From Escherichia coli (lineage in GTDB: Bacteria > Pseudomonadota > Gammaproteobacteria > Enterobacterales > Enterobacteriaceae), in NCBI RefSeq assembly GCF_009931435.1, contig NZ_CP043414.1: DNA of 64,000 bases, one strand, 5' to 3'. A program made the position numbers and the translations under genes. Shown in pieces: positions 6,338 to 56,265 of the stretch. The notes under the pieces are model-generated. The model had not been told where the DNA came from. It saw nothing but the letters and a program-made list of their open reading frames with translations, and ran no database searches. The first letter of the stretch is position 1. Every line of letters starts with the position of its first letter.

Positions 6338-8599
6338 TTACATCTGACGGTTTTTATTGAAGTTAATCAAACTACCCGCCTTGATAATCTCGCGCTCTTC
6401 AGCAGTCAGACTTTCCATATAGAGCGTAATCTCTGTTACCGGCGCATCTTCATGGATCACATAACCTTTAAACGTCGTCCCCGGATTATCCAGCGCCGCT
6501 TTAATGCCAGGGATGTAAATGTAATCGCCCACTTCAAAGTTCGGTGCTTCCGCCATTTGCAGCGGTAACATCCCCCAGTTGATGACGTTAGAACGGTAGC
6601 GTTTAGTCGCGTATTCCTCGGCAATATTCGCCAGACCGCCAATCACACGCTGGCAACTCGCCGCCTGCTCACGCGCAGAACCATCGCCTGGTTTCACCGC
6701 ATAGACCATGCTGCCAATTTCAGTTTGCAGCGGATCAATATGCTCCTGACCAGCAATCTGCTTAATGCGCGCAAACACCTCTGTCAGCTCGCTGACATTG
6801 CCCGCCAGACGCTGATTTTCCAGCTCGGCAGTCGCTTTACTTCTGCCAACATAGCCCGGATCACGGCGTAACAGGGTAAACTCCGCCAAACCAATCGGAT
6901 TTGAACGATAAGAAGAGGTTTCACCGGAAGGAATCAATTCGTCGGTGGTGGTCACTTCGTCGAGGATCTTCGAGCACACTTTGAGGACGATATTGTCAGT
7001 CAGCGCCCCCAATTCCGGCCAGTCTTTGATGTTCGGTCCGTAGATCAGCGATTGCTGGGTCGCCCCTTTCACAAAGCCCTGATAGACGCGATTTTTATAC
7101 GGCGTGACATCGAAGGCATACTCCGGCACGATGTCCCAGCAGTCCAATTCACTTGCAGAGGTTAAATAACCACCGTTTGCGGCTGTTGCAGCGATAGAAC
7201 GGGCATCCATCAACGCCACCGCTGACATCTGACCGTTGGCTGGCTTAGAGCCTTCGCGATTCGGGAAGTTACGCGTGGTGTGGCGAATACTCAAACCGTT
7301 GTTGATTGGCGTGTCGCCCGCGCCAAAGCATGGGCCGCAGAACGCGGTTCTGATGATTGCGCCTGCGCCAATCAAATCTGCTACCACGCCTTTTTTGGCT
7401 AAATCCATAAACACCGGCTGTGATGATGGATAAACCGCCAGCGAGAAGGTGTCATTGCCACAGGATTGACCGCGCAGCGCATTAGCTGCAGCGATAACGT
7501 TTTCATAGTTACCGCCAGAACAGCCCGCGATAATCCCCTGCTGCACTTTCAGGCGACCATTTTCGACTTTATCCAGCAATGAGAGTTTGGCTTTCCCGTG
7601 CGCCACGCGCTCGGACTCAATTTCAATCTCACGCAGAATGTCAGTCAGGTTCTGGTTCAGCATGTCGATTTCATACACGTTGCTCGGGTGGAACGGCAGC
7701 GCAATCATTGGTTTGATGGCACTCAAATCAACGCTGATGCAGCCATCGTAGTACGCCATCGGTTGAGGGTTAAGCTGACAATAATCCTGGCCGCGACCGT
7801 GCAGCGCCAGCCAGTTATGGACTTCTTCATCAGTTTGCCAGACAGAACTTAAACAGGTCGTTTCAGTGGTCATAACGTCAACGCTGTTACGGAAATCGGT
7901 AGAGAGCGCCGCAACACCGGGACCTACGAATTCCATCACTTTGTTTTTGACGTAGCCGTTTTTGAACACGGCACCAATGATAGCCAGCGCCACATCCTGC
8001 GGCCCCACATACGGCGCAGGTTTTCCGGTCAAATGCACCGCAACAACTCCCGGATAGTCGATATCCCAGGTGTCATTAAGCAGCTGTTTTACCAACTCAC
8101 CGCCACCCTCACCGACTGCCATTGTCCCTAATGCACCGTAACGGGTGTGGCTGTCTGACCCGAGGATCATTTTGCCGCCTCCTGCCATCATCTCACGCAT
8201 ATATTGATGGATGACCGCAATATGTGGAGGCACAAAAATACCGCCATAACGCTGCGCTGCCGATAAACCAAAAACATGGTCATCACCGTTAATGGTGCCG
8301 CCGACGGCGCAGAGTGAGTTATGGCAGTTGGTCAGCACATACGGCAGCGGGAAACGTTCCATACCGGACGCTTTAGCGGTCTGTACAATACCAACAAAGG
8401 TAATATCGTGAGAGGCTAATGAATCAAACTTAATTTTAAGTTTGTCCATATTTCCGGACGTATTATGAGAAGAGAGAATAGACCAGGCAATAGTGCCTTT
8501 TTTGGCTTCTTCTTTTTTAATTTCGCCGCTGAAATGTTCTTCGGCAATTATTTCGTTATTACTGGCGAGAAACACGCCTTTTTCAGATAACTTGATCAT
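6338..8599 (-). CDS. ybhJ: aconitase-family protein YbhJ
   Basis: ORF 6338-8623 (761 aa); start placed at Met9 ([10 protein letters not shown]) giving 753 aa as in K-12. Confidence 0.88.
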
Positions 8600-8654: not shown

Positions 8655-8779
8655 ATACTCTAAATAATTCGAGTTGCAGGAAGGCGGCAAGCGAGTGAAT
8701 CCCCAGGAGCTTACATAAGTAAGTGACTGGGGTGAGCGAACGCAGACGCAGCACATGCAACTTGAAGTATGACGAGTAT
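8655..8779. repeat. ERIC (IRU) element between ybhI and ybhJ
   Basis: Contains gtgaatccccaggagcttacat and aagtaagtgactggggtgagcg, the two ERIC primer core sequences. Confidence 0.75.
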
Positions 8780-40547: not shown

Positions 40548-40883
40548 CATGACTCCTTGCTCATCGCATGAAGACTCCGAGAGTGAACCCCGTTAGAAAG
40601 GGTCACACGCATGCCCCAATACAAAATTATTTGCTCGCCTCTATCGCTGCCTTTTCCTCAAAAGTGGAAAAGACAATGATAAAAAGTTACAAATATGTTA
40701 ATGAATAAACCAAATTGATCCCGTAATTATATTACGCCGCAAAATCCTTACAATAAACAGGTTTTTATTGAGCAAATTTGCATTTTTCGACAGTGATCAA
40801 TTTATAGCGAAATTGTCACGACCTCACCAATTTGATCTACGACAATTTATCGTGTTTTGCAGATTTTTTTCAAGAATTAAAAA

Positions 40884-40897
40884 TTGATTTATATCAA
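40884..40897. promoter_or_regulatory. FNR-type box in cydAB upstream region
   Basis: ttgatttatatcaa is an exact TTGAT-N4-ATCAA palindrome, about 340 bp upstream of cydA. Confidence 0.5.
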
Positions 40898-41272
40898 AAC
40901 CAATCAAATATGTTAATTATGTATAAACCATAGACCATTGGTAATTTTATTGTTAATTTATTGTGAAATATTTATGTAACACAATTATTACAATAAAAAG
41001 ACATAGATAAAAAACCAGTGTTTTATTTAACAGAATCGCCTTATCAACTTTTTATAATACCAATTGATTAGAGTAGCCAATTTGTTGCTATTTTACATAA
41101 CATATTTTTATCAAAGTTAATTGATTGTTGCCTTTATGAGCATCGCCGTAAGACCGCCATGTTATTGTTTCATTTGTAATAATCACCAATAAGTATCGAT
41201 GAGAGAGATATCGCTTAACAGAGGCGACTGTGTCTGCATGAACACAGGCAACTTTCGCCTGATAAACGAAAA

Positions 41273-42295
41273 ATGAGCGATTTTTGCAAGTTAGTTTTTC
41301 TATTGCCGGGTACGCTGAGCGCCTCGCTTGATTACAATGAGGTTGCTGCCATGGGTCTTGATAATATAGGTTCTGTTGTCAATCGCTTCTCTGGTTGGCC
41401 ATCAAATGATCCTCTAAAAACAGATAACGAATCAATGACATCACCCGTGACTGTGCAGGTAATAAAGTTGATTGCCGCCATCCTTGACCCACATCGGATA
41501 GTCGTTGGTATCGATACACTTTATACAACGCAGCGCAAAACATTTACCTCAGAGGGTCAACAACTCATTGAATCAGCATTGAAAACACTTAATGTGATGA
41601 ATTTAAATAACCTGGAAACAGATCGTGATGAGGAGGGTAACTATCTGGCTTTTGGATATAACGTTGACACTCCTGACAGAATAACCGTTTCTGCTTATAA
41701 TGAAAAAAAACCTTTCTGTTATGGCCAATGTCTTTTAATACAGGATGAAGAACCAGATTTATTTAACCTGGTAAAAATTAAAACCTTTGAAGCCAGGCAT
41801 AATTATGTTTCTAAATTGATGAGCGATCCGGAATTTATGTTTAAATTCAGTTATAGCGCCCAACAAAATAGATTAGAACCTCATCTTCTGGTTCCCACTT
41901 ATTTCCCTCTGAAAACAAACCAACCGGTTACGCTAGAGGATGTACTGATACTTTATCGTTTCTTTAAAATGAATGGCGATTTTAATATATTAACATCAGA
42001 TGAATACATGAGTATCATGACACCTCTGATGAAGTGTGAGCGTAGTATCCACGACCATAACAGGTATGTGACGGGCAAAGATGCTCTTCTTCTGGACAAT
42101 CCTCCGTCTGGTAACCAGATATATTTCCATATTTCCCCTGACGAATCAGCAACACTTGTCCTTTATTTTTCAGACAATAACCTTGAATCCTTCGTCTTTG
42201 AAAATGATATTCCGAGCCAGTATCGACATTTCAAAATGTTTACCAATTTAGCACTAGTTATTGATCAGTTAACCGACGCCAATCAAATACTTTAA
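41273..42295 (+). CDS. hypothetical protein, no recognisable family, low-GC gene
   Basis: 340-codon ORF in about 33 percent GC DNA; no Shine-Dalgarno at first ATG; alternative start ATG 41351 has GAGG 9 nt upstream. Confidence 0.6.
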   Translation: MSDFCKLVFLLPGTLSASLDYNEVAAMGLDNIGSVVNRFSGWPSNDPLKTDNESMTSPVTVQVIKLIAAILDPHRIVVGIDTLYTTQRKTFTSEGQQLIESALKTLNVMNLNNLETDRDEEGNYLAFGYNVDTPDRITVSAYNEKKPFCYGQCLLIQDEEPDLFNLVKIKTFEARHNYVSKLMSDPEFMFKFSYSAQQNRLEPHLLVPTYFPLKTNQPVTLEDVLILYRFFKMNGDFNILTSDEYMSIMTPLMKCERSIHDHNRYVTGKDALLLDNPPSGNQIYFHISPDESATLVLYFSDNNLESFVFENDIPSQYRHFKMFTNLALVIDQLTDANQIL

Positions 42296-42374
42296 TTTTC
42301 TATACAGCCCTGTGTAAAATATTGCTAAACAGTGCCCGGGGTTGATTTTTATTCCTCACGGTGATATTTAAATC

Positions 42375-42797
42375 ATGACACCATCTCAGCTCTCTTTTAA
42401 TACTCTTCCTGTCAATGCAACATGCACTTCAGAGATAACAGTAAACACACAAAAATTCTCTGACATCCTCTACTCAGTGGGGTATTCCCTAAAGGATCTG
42501 GCTTATCTGAGCAGATGTCTGGCATCATTACACCCGACACTCGCCAAAAACATTTATGAAACGGAAAATCTCAGCGATCAAAAATTACTTTATATAGATT
42601 GCCGTAGTACAAATGAAATCAAGATAAATATCTTTTTGGGTCAAAAAAGAGAAGAATTAATCGAAATTAGTTCTGATACAGTCATTTTTTCGATACTGTC
42701 TTCATTGATTGACTCAGTTATTTCTGAACATCGACATCAAATCCCCGTTAACGATTCAAATAATTCTGAACTATTTTATGAGGATTATACTGATTAA
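42375..42797 (+). CDS. hypothetical small acidic protein, no recognisable family
   Basis: 140 aa ORF, same strand, 79 bp downstream of the 340 aa ORF, AT-rich, acidic C-terminus (ELFYEDYTD). Confidence 0.55.
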   Translation: MTPSQLSFNTLPVNATCTSEITVNTQKFSDILYSVGYSLKDLAYLSRCLASLHPTLAKNIYETENLSDQKLLYIDCRSTNEIKINIFLGQKREELIEISSDTVIFSILSSLIDSVISEHRHQIPVNDSNNSELFYEDYTD

Positions 42798-43341
42798 ATC
42801 CACTCTGTACGAACCTGTCCTGCATTTATGCCAGAAGTATTAGAATCTTTGCTTAACGTTACTCATACAGTAGCACCTTCATGTGCCTCTCTTTTTTACG
42901 AAAAATCAAAAGAGCTAACAAAAGTCATTCTTCGCATGAATCATTAATTATTTGTTATTTTCAACATTATTTTTACATTAAGCATATATGAATTGCAGTG
43001 AAATTCGACTTAACTTTTATGAAATGCATTTACTCATGGCTAAAGCCACGTCACAAAAATGCAAATTAGAAGTTGATCACAATTATCTCAATCCATCAAA
43101 TCAAGTTAATTTTAAAAATTTAACATCCATGACATTAGTTGACATAACACGCTGAATTAAAATGAGAATTTAAAAAAACACTTTAAACAATCATTTCCCG
43201 AAAGACATTTTGAAAATAGATCAATTGCAACATTACGGTCAGATAAAGACACTCCTCTGATATTAAACCTGTGCCGTTATGAACGGCCATAAATACGACG
43301 TGTGTAACTTAATTTACTCTCTGTCTTACAAAGGATTACCC

Positions 43342-43791
43342 ATGAAGAAAGCAACACTTGTGATTGGCGTTATTGGCGCGGACTGCCATGCAGTAGGCAA
43401 TAAAGTTCTGGACCGCGTTTTTAGCAACCATGACTTCAGAGTCATTAATCTGGGCGTAATGGTCAGCCAGGACGAATATATTGATGCTGCCATTGAAACT
43501 GGCGCTGACGCGATTGTCGTCTCCTCTATCTATGGGCATGGCGATATCGATTGTCTGGGCATGCGCGAACGCTGCATCGAGCGTGGGCTGGGTAACATCC
43601 TGCTCTATGTGGGCGGTAACCTGGTGGTCGGAAAACATGACTTCGCTGACGTGGAAACCAAGTTCAAAGAGATGGGATTTGATCGCGTCTTTTCCCCAAG
43701 TCATGACTTAGAAGATGTTTGTCAGCTGATGGCCCACGATATCAACCAACGTCATGACGTTGATACTCGCATTCTTGAAGAGGCAATCTGA
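43342..43791 (+). CDS. glutamate mutase sigma subunit (B12-binding subunit)
   Basis: ORF 43279-43791; start placed at ATG 43342 after AAAGGA; [18 protein letters not shown] resembles the clostridial MutS/GlmS cobalamin-binding motif. Confidence 0.88.
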
Positions 43792-54594: not shown

Positions 54595-56265
54595 TTATTT
54601 TTGATTTATAGCATATCCCTCTAAGAATTTTTGCGATGCTTCAATATCCGGGGTAAAGACCCGATCCTGACTGACAAATGGCACGACTTGACGATAAGCG
54701 GTGAACATCGCTTTTGTTGATTTGCCTAACGCCAGCTGTGGATCGGCTTGCAAGCGCAAATCAATCGCCTGGGCAGAATGCATCAGTTCAATGCCATAAA
54801 TGACATTCAAATTATCAACAACCTGTTTCAATCTTCTCGCCGCGTGGTCGTTATTGGCACCCGTATCTTCAATGCCTCCGGCTACCGGTTGAATATCGAA
54901 AGAAACCGGGTTAGCGAGATCGACATTTTCCGCATGCAGCGCAACAAACGGGATATGTAATGAACCGAAGCCATGACCTTTATTACCTGCTGCCGACAGG
55001 AAGCGTGACAAACCGGTAAAGTGATCATCTTCAAGATGCAGCGAGCGGCGCATACTGTTATGTGAAACATGCACTAACGCCACGGTCAGACGCTGGGTGG
55101 CAAGCGCAACCGGTAACGATTCGAAATTCGCCGTCGGGAAGATCCCACCGCTGATTGCCCCATCTTTAACAAAATATTGCGCGACCTGACTGGAGTCCTG
55201 ATACGCTTTGTCTGCATTCAGCACGGTTGCCGGGTTGTCATCGGAACTGTTGATCTGCACGGTAATGGTATCTTCAGCATCGCGCAACGCGCGCATTGCC
55301 TCAGAAATGGTATACACCGTCGTTCTGAACGATAACGGATCCTGCAATGCACGTTTGTCATCCTTATGCCATAAATAAGAACCACTTAACGCATCGCGAA
55401 TCTCTTTAGCGGAATCAGCCAACTGCGGGAAAGGACGCACGGCGATCGACTGCGGCAGTACCGGCGCGACATTGCCATTCAACGCTTCGAGGCTCATGGC
55501 GAAAACCACCGGACTGACATTCAGCACCTGGCGTGCCGACCGTACCGCTTCAATTGCATATGCTGTTCCGACACTGTTGTTCGACAAAATCGCCAGCATA
55601 TCTTTACCCTGCGGGACCAGTGGTTTAAGCCCCACTTTCACCAGCGCATCGCCACCACTCATTTCCACGCCATTAACCCGCGCTTTCCACTCGCCCATCA
55701 TCACCAGACCAACGTGTGAAGCGAGCATAATATCCGCTGCGCCGATACTTCCCCGCGCCGGAATTAACGGCGTAACGCCTCGATTAATAAACTCGGCATA
55801 CAACTCGGCAATATAAGGCTGCGCGCCGGTTTGCCCATGCAACATAGTATTTAAACGTAACACCATTGAGAGACGGGCAAGATAATCCGGCAACATCGGA
55901 CCGACGCCCGCAGAATGGGCGCGCAGCGCGGCAGCATTAAATTTTTTCGATGCGTCAATCACCTCAGGCGTTAAATTTCCTTTGGCATCAAATATGGGCT
56001 GATCTTTATTTAGCCCCACGCCCACGGTTAAGCCATAAACAGGCGTACCTGAATGCGCGGCAGTCATCACCAGATCATAACTTTTTTCCATGCGCTCCAT
56101 GGCGTTCGACGCGATTTTGACGCCGTTATCACCTAATGCAATTGACCAGGCCTGGTCAATAGAGAGATGTTCGCCATCCAGCGTAATGGTTGATTTTGCC
56201 ATCGCGATGGAGCAAACGCTCCAGAGCACAACGGTGACAGTGACTCTGCGTATCAATCCTTTCAT
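54595..56265 (-). CDS. aromatic amino acid lyase (HAL/PAL) fold protein lacking the MIO triad, signal-peptide-like N-terminus
   Basis: 556 aa ORF; conserved GSVGASGDLAPLAH block reads GSIGAADIMLASH (codons checked at 55729-55752); N-terminus MKGLIRRVTVTVVLWSVCSIAMA; AAGGA 6 nt upstream of ATG 56265. Confidence 0.8.
   Translation of the reverse strand: MKGLIRRVTVTVVLWSVCSIAMAKSTITLDGEHLSIDQAWSIALGDNGVKIASNAMERMEKSYDLVMTAAHSGTPVYGLTVGVGLNKDQPIFDAKGNLTPEVIDASKKFNAAALRAHSAGVGPMLPDYLARLSMVLRLNTMLHGQTGAQPYIAELYAEFINRGVTPLIPARGSIGAADIMLASHVGLVMMGEWKARVNGVEMSGGDALVKVGLKPLVPQGKDMLAILSNNSVGTAYAIEAVRSARQVLNVSPVVFAMSLEALNGNVAPVLPQSIAVRPFPQLADSAKEIRDALSGSYLWHKDDKRALQDPLSFRTTVYTISEAMRALRDAEDTITVQINSSDDNPATVLNADKAYQDSSQVAQYFVKDGAISGGIFPTANFESLPVALATQRLTVALVHVSHNSMRRSLHLEDDHFTGLSRFLSAAGNKGHGFGSLHIPFVALHAENVDLANPVSFDIQPVAGGIEDTGANNDHAARRLKQVVDNLNVIYGIELMHSAQAIDLRLQADPQLALGKSTKAMFTAYRQVVPFVSQDRVFTPDIEASQKFLEGYAINQK

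What the first reader, a model, noticed from the sequence alone, without database searches (positions are those of the whole stretch)
41273..42797. AT-rich two-gene islet of unknown function at the backbone/accessory junction
Two same-strand ORFs (340 aa and 140 aa, 79 bp apart) sit in a markedly AT-rich block between the cydA regulatory region and the glutamate mutase operon. Neither matches any family I recognise. Long open frames are improbable by chance in AT-rich DNA because stop codons are AT-rich, so both are probably real genes. The small protein is acidic with an ELFYEDYTD C-terminus. The arrangement (large protein plus small acidic partner, foreign composition, beside a catabolic island) fits a toxin/immunity, effector/chaperone or defence-type pair, but that is speculation.
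Basis: seen in the sequence. Interest (0 to 1): 0.68.

Follow-up and report, generated by a model that had tools for sequence, protein, structure and literature searches.

The report
Orphan Escherichia gene pair beside cydA
Two uncharacterised genes found only in Escherichia sit in an AT-rich patch between cydA and the glutamate-fermentation island; the larger is clearly a real gene and the smaller probably is, but they are almost silent, dispensable, fixed in place, and show no sign of being a toxin, defence or secretion pair.

Summary
Both ORFs are at the stated coordinates, 79 bp apart, in a 26-43% GC block between cydA and glmS. One correction: the conserved start of ORF1 is 41351 (314 aa). 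The 340-aa form exists only because an upstream TAG is TTG in this strain.

ORF1 is a real coding gene: pN/pS is 0.40-0.47 (p=1e-9), and it has no indel against E. albertii at 76% DNA identity. ORF2 is only modestly supported (pN/pS 0.46, p=0.01).

Neither protein matches Pfam, NCBIfam, PADLOC, PHROGs or PDB sequences. A profile search of ORF1 against 1.84 billion representative proteins also found nothing, and both structure models are unreliable. Homologues occur only in Escherichia, always at this chromosomal site. In E. coli they occur in essentially as many genomes as the methylaspartate operon (1135 against 1131 of 5426).

ORF2 carries a stop in E. albertii while ORF1 stays intact. Both genes are broken by ERIC insertions and indels in Escherichia sp. 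MOD1-EC7003. The O157 counterparts are nearly untranscribed in 11 conditions and were not found in a shotgun proteome.

Best reading: vertically inherited, weakly constrained orphan genes in an AT-rich islet that is probably H-NS-silenced. The toxin/immunity, defence and effector/chaperone readings are unsupported. Function is unresolved.

The parts
40551..41193 (.). AT-rich cydA upstream (regulatory) region. This is backbone DNA and marks the left boundary of the islet.
   Evidence: Shared at 87-99% with other Escherichia. Some E. coli that lack the pair (e.g. O2:K2:H1 C 237-04) match only window 40600-41193, and K-12-type genomes match only about 40682-40922.
41250..41350 (+). Conserved leader of about 100 nt upstream of ORF1. 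It holds a 10-codon upstream ORF (ATG 41273; MSDFCKLVFL). That ORF's stop codon (TAG in all relatives) is TTG here at 41303-41305. The Shine-Dalgarno GAGG lies at 41339-41342.
   Evidence: In alignment of 8 loci this stretch is more conserved than the coding region: 95% to O157 and 86% to E. albertii. A hairpin that would sequester the Shine-Dalgarno is predicted, but it is no more stable than shuffled sequence (z=0.02) and shows no covariation.
41351..42295 (+).
   Evidence: pN/pS is 0.40 (p=4.5e-5) against O157 and 0.47 (p=1e-9) against E. albertii. Substitutions at codon positions 1, 2 and 3 number 69, 53 and 105 (p=4e-6). There are no indels at 76% nucleotide identity. The frame stayed open in only 8 of 5000 random-substitution simulations. 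PGAP annotates it as a 314-aa hypothetical protein.
42296..42374 (.). 79-nt spacer between ORF1 and ORF2, poorly conserved.
   Evidence: The alignment block covering the spacer (42269-42366) is 84% identical to O157 and 64% to E. albertii, with gaps. No terminator-like site was found between or after the ORFs.
42375..42797 (+). ORF2: a 140-aa acidic orphan protein. It is probably coding, but weakly constrained and dispensable.
   Evidence: pN/pS is 0.46 (p=0.01), and substitutions are spread evenly across codon positions. It is intact in E. coli, has an internal stop in E. albertii, is degraded in L004, and is disrupted by an ERIC element in L011. The AF2 core has pLDDT 70-81, but the model disagrees with the AFDB model of the E. 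coli orthologue (TM 0.29).
42798..43341 (.). AT-rich (about 30% GC) non-coding spacer up to the glmS start at 43342. It is presumably the promoter and regulatory region of the methylaspartate operon.
   Evidence: 42946-43341 is 77-85% identical to E. albertii, whereas 42767-42945 is poorly conserved. The 55-aa ORF at 42988-43155 is not kept open in relatives. There is no Rfam match.

Best explanation
ORF1 (41351-42295, 314 aa) and ORF2 (42375-42797, 140 aa) are orphan protein-coding genes restricted to Escherichia. They sit in an AT-rich islet that forms the cydA-proximal end of the cydA-sucD variable region. In E. coli they travel as a single haplotype with the methylaspartate (glutamate-fermentation) island.

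Shown:
- They were already present before E. coli and E. albertii split.
- They have been inherited vertically at one fixed site.
- Their proteins evolve several-fold to roughly 60-fold faster than those of neighbouring genes (omega about 0.4, against 0.006-0.17).
- They are almost untranscribed under laboratory and environmental test conditions.
- They have been lost by point mutation, frameshift or ERIC insertion in several lineages.
- ORF1 persists without ORF2, so the two are not an obligate two-component module.

Inferred:
- The DNA came from a low-GC donor.
- It is kept repressed by H-NS-type xenogeneic silencing, like other AT-rich islets of E. coli, and is expressed only under an unknown niche-specific signal.
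- Both products are soluble, acidic cytoplasmic proteins.
- The best-constrained part of ORF1 is residues 53-104.
- The conserved 5' leader with its upstream ORF suggests post-transcriptional control of ORF1.

The biochemical activity is unresolved. The most likely role is a conditionally expressed, non-essential accessory protein. It is not a selfish or conflict module.
For: Coding status:
- Searches support ORF1 as coding.
- pN/pS in the two alternative frames is 0.89-0.92, against 0.47 in frame.

Orphan status:
- ORF1 homologues are all Escherichia-type proteins; where a source names them they are Escherichia coli.
- The profile search of 1.84e9 representative proteins returned only fragments of ORF1 itself.
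- The scan of GTDB species genomes found only E. albertii, Escherichia sp. MOD1-EC7003 and two E. coli-like MAG contigs.
- ORF2 homologues are all Escherichia or Shigella where named.
- There are no Pfam, NCBIfam, PADLOC, PHROGs or PDB matches.

Fixed, vertically inherited locus:
- 1135 of 5426 E. coli genomes carry the pair, with a median of one place per genome, on chromosomes.
- glmE is present in 1131 genomes.
- dS of ORF1 is 0.18 and 0.60, comparable with neighbouring genes at 0.05-0.15 and 0.22-1.1.

Dispensability:
-.

Silence:
- These loci are absent from the Pieper 2011 proteome tables, which do list cydA.

General precedent:
- H-NS-bound genes of E. coli evolve faster at non-synonymous sites (Higashi 2016, PMC4720273).
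Against: - No H-NS binding or hns-mutant data were found for this locus, so silencing by H-NS is inferred only from composition and low expression.
- Intactness in 60 of 60 sampled E. coli genomes and omega well below 1 show that ORF1 does something, and that function is not identified here.
- Near-perfect linkage with the methylaspartate operon could reflect a functional tie rather than mere physical linkage.
- Structure predictions were too poor to exclude a known fold (pLDDT 43 and 58, with alignments of only 6-8 sequences).
Confidence: 0.6

Rival explanations
1. The pair is an accessory or regulatory factor of the adjacent methylaspartate (glutamate to mesaconate) island. ORF1, with or without ORF2, would modulate expression or assembly of the B12-dependent glutamate mutase pathway encoded immediately downstream on the same strand.
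For: - The pair lies on the same strand directly upstream of glmS.
- The numbers of E. coli genomes carrying the pair (1135) and glmE (1131) are almost identical.
- Both the pair and the operon are near-silent in EDL933.
- No terminator-like site lies between ORF2 and glmS.
Against: - The operon occurs in Klebsiella, Citrobacter, Salmonella, Yersinia and others (Kronen & Berg 2015), but no ORF1 or ORF2 homologue exists outside Escherichia.
- Composition differs sharply (36% against about 52% GC), which implies a separate origin.
- A 545-nt spacer separates ORF2 from glmS.
- The island already encodes a LysR regulator and CobO.
- ORF2 is a pseudogene in E. albertii strains that keep an intact operon.
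- ORF1 is intact in L004, where the operon is absent, although that deletion looks recent.
Confidence: 0.14
2. ORF1 is a type III secretion effector and ORF2 is its small acidic class I chaperone.
For: - The setting is an AT-rich islet holding a fast-evolving orphan protein.
- The ORF1 N-terminus is rich in Ser, Asn and Pro: 9-11 of the first 30 residues, depending on the sequence.
- ORF1 residues 1-91 are predicted without confident structure.
- ORF2 is 140 aa with pI 4.65 and lies directly downstream.
- The pair occurs in T3SS-bearing lineages (O157, O145, E. albertii).
Against: - There is no match to any effector or chaperone family, not even at Pfam E<=10.
- The predicted ORF2 topology is alpha-alpha-beta-beta-beta-alpha, not the CesT-type alpha-beta3-alpha-beta2-alpha.
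- ORF2 is inactivated in E. albertii while ORF1 is kept.
- The pair is intact in many E. coli lineages, such as ST648 and porcine ETEC. From general knowledge these lack LEE; this was not tested here.
- The N-terminus also contains 3 Asp and 1 Glu in the first 30 residues.
Confidence: 0.08
3. The pair is a toxin/immunity, toxin-antitoxin or anti-phage defence pair.
For: - Two adjacent same-strand genes, one large and one small and acidic, in DNA of foreign composition.
- Elevated protein evolutionary rate.
Against: - There is no PADLOC hit and no toxin, antitoxin or nuclease domain.
- The pair is single-copy at one conserved chromosomal site, with no integrase, transposase or phage context, and it is absent from genuine plasmids.
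- Inheritance is vertical.
- The small partner is lost while the large one stays intact in E. albertii. That would be lethal if ORF1 were a toxin neutralised by ORF2.
- No window of ORF1 has pN/pS above 1.
Confidence: 0.06
4. Both ORFs are functionless relics of an old acquisition that merely remain open.
For: - Near-zero transcription and no proteomic detection.
- Repeated independent inactivation in E. albertii, its type strain and MOD1-EC7003.
- ORF2 shows a flat codon-position substitution pattern and only a marginal pN/pS signal.
Against: - ORF1 has pN/pS 0.40-0.47 with p down to 1e-9.
- ORF1 has no indel across the E. coli-E. albertii divergence.
- Its frame stayed open in only 8 of 5000 neutral simulations.
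- Both genes are intact in 60 of 60 sampled E. coli genomes.
- The relic reading remains plausible for ORF2 alone, at roughly 0.3.
Confidence: 0.07

Closest known systems
H-NS-bound, horizontally acquired AT-rich genes of E. coli (e.g. ybdO; Higashi et al. 2016, PMC4720273)
   Same: - AT content far below the genome average.
- Near-silence in standard culture.
- Faster non-synonymous evolution than neighbouring genes.
- Conserved chromosomal position across strains.
   Different: H-NS binding at this locus has not been shown; no data were found. The proteins have no recognisable domain, whereas ybdO encodes a LysR-type regulator.
Methylaspartate / glutamate-fermentation island of E. coli O157:H7 (glmS-glmL-glmE-mal-...-fumD; Kronen & Berg 2015, PMC4682846)
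   Same: The pair is the cydA-proximal end of the same inserted haplotype. It is found in essentially as many E. coli genomes as the operon (1135 against 1131 of 5426).
   Different: - The pair is absent wherever the operon occurs outside Escherichia.
- GC content differs (36% against about 52%).
- The paper's text, as searched here, does not mention these two genes.
- The pair is separated from glmS by a 545-nt spacer.
Type II toxin-antitoxin and polymorphic toxin/immunity pairs
   Same: Two adjacent co-oriented genes, the smaller one acidic, in compositionally foreign DNA.
   Different: - No toxin or antitoxin domains.
- Not mobile and not multicopy.
- The larger gene comes first.
- The small gene decays while the large one stays intact.
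- No PADLOC match.
T3SS effector plus class I chaperone pairs (e.g. Tir/CesT)
   Same: A small (140 aa) acidic protein encoded next to a larger protein with a polar N-terminus, in an AT-rich islet.
   Different: - No CesT-family match.
- A different predicted topology.
- Present in lineages not known to carry LEE.
- The putative chaperone is a pseudogene in E. albertii.
Recently evolved orphan genes of E. coli O157:H7 (Neuhaus et al. 2016, PMC4765031)
   Same: Restricted to Escherichia, with no homologues and weak expression.

Membership tests
Taxonomically restricted (orphan) protein-coding gene | No detectable homologue outside a narrow clade | tested here: met
   ORF1: only Escherichia in 5.8e9 clusters, 1.84e9 representatives with a profile and GTDB species genomes. 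ORF2: only Escherichia or Shigella. The exhaustive representative search was not run for ORF2.
Taxonomically restricted (orphan) protein-coding gene | Sequence evolves under coding (purifying) constraint | tested here: met
   ORF1: pN/pS 0.40-0.47, p=4.5e-5 to 1e-9, with codon-position bias and no indels. ORF2: only marginal (pN/pS 0.46, p=0.01, flat position pattern), so inconclusive for ORF2.
H-NS-type xenogeneically silenced islet | AT content well above the host average | tested here: met
   GC is 0.26-0.43 against about 0.52 in the flanks. GC3 is 0.31-0.34 against 0.58-0.62.
H-NS-type xenogeneically silenced islet | Transcriptionally silent under standard conditions | tested here: met
   In the EDL933 counterparts, all four CDSs between glmS and cydA have RPKM 0-12 in 11 conditions and are absent from the proteome tables. 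This is a different strain, and the tag-to-ORF mapping is inferred.
H-NS-type xenogeneically silenced islet | H-NS occupancy and de-repression in an hns mutant | not testable with these tools
   No entry for this locus appears in the supplements of two H-NS ChIP/ChAP papers. The enrichment of the H-NS motif in the islet is what AT-richness alone would give.
Toxin-antitoxin / toxin-immunity pair | Recognisable toxin or antitoxin/immunity domain | tested here: not met
   No hit in Pfam (even at E<=10), NCBIfam, PADLOC, PHROGs or PDB sequences.
Toxin-antitoxin / toxin-immunity pair | The protective partner is retained whenever the toxin gene is intact | tested here: not met
   E. albertii L005-L007 have an intact ORF1, while ORF2 carries an in-frame stop. 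In L004, ORF1 is intact and ORF2 is degraded. This is compatible only with the reverse assignment, in which ORF2 is the toxin.
Toxin-antitoxin / toxin-immunity pair | Toxicity of one component, neutralised by the other | not testable with these tools
   Requires expression experiments.
Anti-phage defence system | Match to a known or candidate defence protein model | tested here: not met
   PADLOC-DB gives 0 families for both proteins at E<=1.
Anti-phage defence system | Location in a defence island or mobile element, with patchy horizontal distribution | tested here: not met
   The pair has one fixed chromosomal site between cydA and glmS in every genome examined. Its neighbours are respiratory and catabolic genes, and dS resembles that of the neighbours.
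T3SS effector + class I chaperone | Chaperone of the CesT/SycE family or fold (alpha-beta3-alpha-beta2-alpha dimer) | tested here: inconclusive
   [not shown]
T3SS effector + class I chaperone | N-terminal secretion signal and T3SS-dependent translocation | not testable with these tools
   Only composition was inspected: a Ser/Asn/Pro-rich first 30 residues that also carry 4 acidic residues.
Methylaspartate-pathway gene cluster | Co-occurrence with glutamate mutase genes | tested here: met
   Within E. coli, 1135 genomes have the pair and 1131 have glmE. This was measured as matching counts, not as a per-genome overlap.
Methylaspartate-pathway gene cluster | Conserved with the cluster in other taxa that carry it | tested here: not met
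   The cluster is reported in many Enterobacteriaceae and in clostridia, but no ORF1 or ORF2 homologue exists outside Escherichia.

The most novel reading that the evidence does not exclude
ORF1 founds a previously unrecognised, Escherichia-specific protein family. Its fold would be invisible to current sequence and structure methods. It would act in host or microbe interaction, for example as a secreted or conditionally deployed effector, under control of a conserved leader with an upstream ORF, with ORF2 as an expendable helper. The conserved N-terminal 100 residues and the faster-changing middle region would then be a delivery or partner-binding module and a target-facing module.
Probability: 0.1. 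Interest if true: 0.6.

Novelty: new member of a known kind. Interest (0 to 1): 0.27.

Why it matters
About a fifth of complete E. coli genomes, including O157:H7, carry these two genes, and none of the literature searches run here turned up a study of them. Showing that ORF1 is a constrained, 314-aa, genus-restricted protein with no detectable relatives marks it as a clean example of an old orphan gene. It could be used to ask what such genes do and how silenced AT-rich DNA is retained.

In practice, this work corrects the gene model, places the islet boundary at about 41194, and removes the attractive but unsupported toxin/defence label. It does not open a long-standing question.

Tried and rejected
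Homology and structure:
- Family scans for both proteins found nothing: Pfam, NCBIfam, PADLOC, PHROGs and PDB sequence profiles.
- The exhaustive profile search of 1.84e9 representatives with ORF1 returned only fragments of ORF1 itself.
- A second ORF2 search with a profile added only frameshifted E. coli copies from low-quality assemblies.
- AlphaFold2 gave pLDDT 43 for ORF1 and 58 for ORF2.
- Foldseek against AFDB50 found only E. coli orthologues of ORF2, and these matched with TM 0.29. The model is therefore not reproducible.
- Profile-profile tests for ORF1/ORF2 paralogy and for internal repeats in ORF1 found nothing.

Sequence signals:
- The promoter and terminator scan found no more sites than in shuffled sequence.
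- Rfam gave only a sub-threshold chance hit.
- Repeat search found only short, chance-like repeats and no flanking direct repeats that would suggest a mobile insertion.
- The H-NS high-affinity motif count is not informative beyond AT-richness.
- The leader RNA fold has z=0.02 and no covariation.
- The 55-aa ORF at 42988-43155 was rejected as a gene.
- Sliding-window pN/pS found no window above 1, so there is no evidence of positive selection at this resolution.

Literature:
- Searches by locus tag and by WP accession found no paper on these genes.
- The supplements of two H-NS papers and one translatome paper do not list the locus.
Full report

Yes. The ORF list gives 41273-42295 (+, 340 aa) and 42375-42797 (+, 140 aa), separated by 79 nt. 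GC falls to 0.26-0.43 between about 40600 and 43300, from roughly 0.50-0.55 on either side. Third-position GC is 0.34 for ORF1 and 0.31 for ORF2, against 0.62 for cydA and 0.58 for glmL.

Chance does not explain ORFs of this length. In 2000 first-order Markov simulations of the 2085-nt islet, the longest ATG-ORF averaged 74 aa. It reached 140 aa or more in 0.4% of runs and never reached 314 aa.

Both products are acidic (pI 4.8 and 4.65). Neither has a hydrophobic stretch that would suggest a signal peptide or membrane helix.

**2. Where the window comes from and what surrounds the ORFs**

The region is 98.2% identical to 'E. coli' strain N96 and about 91-92% identical to O157:H7 and about 1100 other complete E. 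coli genomes.

RefSeq annotation of the same locus reads as follows: tol-pal and ybgC, then ybgE-cydX-cydB-cydA on the minus strand, then two 'hypothetical proteins'. After these come glmS, glmL, glmE, methylaspartate ammonia-lyase, an AtuA-family protein, DUF4387, a dicarboxylate/amino-acid symporter, the class I fumarase FumD, CobO and a LysR regulator, and finally sucD. This is the glutamate-fermentation (methylaspartate) cluster described for O157:H7 by Kronen & Berg 2015 (PMC4682846).

Some E. coli that lack the island (e.g. O2:K2:H1 C 237-04) match the window only from 40600 to 41193. K-12-type genomes match only about 40682-40922. The backbone/accessory junction is therefore near 41194.

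**3. Gene model of ORF1**

PGAP annotates 314 aa, not 340. An alignment of eight loci explains the difference. The 26-codon extension is closed by an in-frame TAG in N96, O157, an E. coli-like MAG contig, three E. albertii sequences, L004 and MOD1-EC7003. Only the window has TTG there, at 41303-41305.

The conserved start is ATG 41351, with GAGG eight nucleotides upstream at 41339-41342. In the relatives, the upstream ATG (41273) opens a conserved 10-codon upstream ORF: MSDFCKLVFL in E. coli, MSDFCKFLFP in E. albertii and MSNFCTSVFL in MOD1-EC7003.

The leader of about 100 nt (41250-41350) is more conserved than the gene itself, at 95% to O157 and 86% to E. albertii. A hairpin that would sequester the Shine-Dalgarno is predicted. 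It is no more stable than shuffled sequence (z=0.02) and has no informative covariation, so this remains only a lead.

**4. Are they genes?**

ORF1 is a gene.
- Against E. albertii (76% DNA identity, 63% protein identity) it has no indel.
- Substitutions at codon positions 1, 2 and 3 number 69, 53 and 105 (p=4e-6).
- pN/pS is 0.47 (Fisher p=1e-9), against 0.89-0.92 in the two other frames.
- When the same 227 substitutions were placed at random, the frame stayed open in only 8 of 5000 trials.

ORF2 is less certain.
- pN/pS against O157 is 0.46 (p=0.01), with control frames at 0.72-0.93.
- Substitutions are spread evenly over codon positions (13, 13 and 16).
- Under random substitution the frame stays open 26% of the time.

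On balance ORF2 is probably coding, because a chance ORF of this length is rare and the pN/pS signal is modest but real. I give it about a 0.3 chance of being non-functional.

**5. Distribution and evolutionary behaviour**

The pair occurs in 1135 of 5426 complete E. coli genomes. It is nearly always full length, with a median of one place per genome, on the chromosome. All 60 evenly sampled records annotate two intact hypothetical CDSs. The three 'plasmid' hits are records of 0.73-4.9 Mb that PLSDB types as non-mobilizable; two are chromosome-sized and look like mislabelled chromosomes. glmE is found in 1131 genomes, so within E. coli the pair and the operon behave as a single haplotype. This was judged from matching counts, not from a per-genome overlap.

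Outside E. coli:
- E. albertii L005-L007 carry an intact 314-aa ORF1. Their ORF2 has an in-frame stop at codon 36 but is otherwise collinear.
- An E. albertii-like contig (L004) lacks the operon, keeps ORF1, and has only a remnant of ORF2.
- In the E. albertii type strain, ORF1 is frameshifted into 209-aa and 108-aa pieces.
- In Escherichia sp. MOD1-EC7003, both genes are broken by ERIC repeat insertions and indels.

The dS of ORF1 (0.18 to O157, 0.60 to E. albertii) lies within the range of its neighbours (0.05-0.15 and 0.22-1.1). Its omega of 0.37, however, compares with 0.006-0.17 for cydA, cydB, glmS, glmL, glmE, MAL and AtuA. The islet is therefore old, vertically inherited and evolving fast at the protein level.

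No 52-codon window of ORF1 has pN/pS above 1. The tightest constraint is on residues 53-104 (0.16-0.23).

**6. Homology and structure**

Nothing was found.
- Pfam gave no hit even at E<=10. NCBIfam, PADLOC, PHROGs and PDB sequence profiles were all negative.
- A profile of six ORF1 sequences searched against 1.84 billion representative proteins returned only short fragments of ORF1 itself.
- A scan of one genome per GTDB species found only E. albertii, MOD1-EC7003 and two E. coli-like MAG contigs.
- Two ORF2 searches found only Escherichia or Shigella sequences. The weakest hits were frameshifted copies from poor assemblies.
- AlphaFold2 with these shallow alignments gave pLDDT 43 for ORF1 and 58 for ORF2.
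- Foldseek matched the ORF2 model only to E. coli orthologues, with TM 0.29, so the model is not reproducible.
- ORF1 and ORF2 are not detectably related to each other, and ORF1 has no internal repeat.

**7. Expression**

| Locus | RPKM across the 11 conditions |
|---|---|

**8. Interpretation**

The data fit an old, vertically inherited, AT-rich islet carrying two genus-restricted orphan genes. The genes are kept almost silent, evolve quickly, and are individually dispensable. ORF1 is under real but weak purifying selection and does not depend on ORF2.

Silencing by H-NS is an inference from composition and expression. I found no binding data for this locus. It is nonetheless consistent with the general finding that H-NS-bound E. 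coli genes evolve faster at non-synonymous sites (Higashi 2016).

- there is no defence or toxin signature;
- the pair is not mobile;
- inheritance is vertical;
- the small partner has been lost while the large one stays intact.

A role tied to the methylaspartate island is the most serious rival, given the shared strand and co-occurrence. It is weakened because the pair is absent wherever the operon occurs in other genera, because composition differs, and because ORF2 is inactivated in E. albertii strains with an intact operon.

The effector/chaperone idea rests only on generic features.

The biochemical function remains unknown. I put 0.6 on the 'silenced orphan accessory genes, not a conflict module' reading, and about 0.1 on ORF1 being a genuinely new functional family of wider interest.

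**9. Verdict**

This is a real feature, correctly spotted, with a corrected gene model. Biologically it is an ordinary case of uncharacterised, lineage-restricted genes in AT-rich DNA. Interest is low to moderate.

Noticed in passing
window 41250-41350 (upstream ORF 41273-41305): A leader of about 100 nt upstream of ORF1 is more conserved than ORF1 itself. It holds a 10-codon upstream ORF whose TAG stop is mutated to TTG only in this window, fusing it in frame to ORF1 to give the 340-aa form. A hairpin that would sequester the Shine-Dalgarno is predicted but not statistically supported.
   Followed up: partly
L011 6387-6430 and about 7128 (Escherichia sp. MOD1-EC7003); window 8695-8738: ERIC (IRU) repeat elements are inserted inside both the ORF1 and ORF2 orthologues of MOD1-EC7003, disrupting them. 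A canonical ERIC copy also lies elsewhere in the window, at 8695-8738. The ERIC primer sequences used came from memory and matched exactly.
   Followed up: partly
L004 9907-10683; L010 about 7862-8206: E. albertii-type genomes that lack the methylaspartate operon carry instead, between ORF1 and sucD, a 258-aa protein with a signal-peptide-like N-terminus and no Pfam match. It is a second orphan at the same variable spot. In the type strain only a 114-aa ORF matching its C-terminal part was listed.
   Followed up: partly
window 42946-43341: The AT-rich non-coding stretch just upstream of glmS is 77-85% identical to E. albertii, as conserved as ORF1. It is probably the operon's promoter and operator region. 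No riboswitch or other Rfam match was found, even though the pathway depends on B12.
   Followed up: partly
window 54595-56265 (minus strand): Between the LysR regulator and sucD the window encodes a protein of the histidine/aromatic ammonia-lyase family (295 bits, below the 524-bit HutH cutoff). The closest genome, N96, is annotated with an RtcB-family gene at the corresponding place. This would be another variable spot in the cydA-sucD region.
   Followed up: no
window 41351-41506 (ORF1 codons 1-52): Synonymous divergence to E. albertii is low in the first 52 codons (pS 0.23, against 0.33-0.61 elsewhere). This hints at nucleotide-level constraint continuing from the leader into the 5' end of the gene.
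   Followed up: no
[not shown]
   Followed up: no
whole window against E. coli genomes: The window's synonymous divergence from O157 is about 0.05-0.15 in core genes such as cydA, and only 4 of 5426 complete genomes are >=99% identical across the pair. One ORF2 relative comes from strain TW10509. The source is probably a divergent Escherichia lineage filed under E. coli.
   Followed up: no
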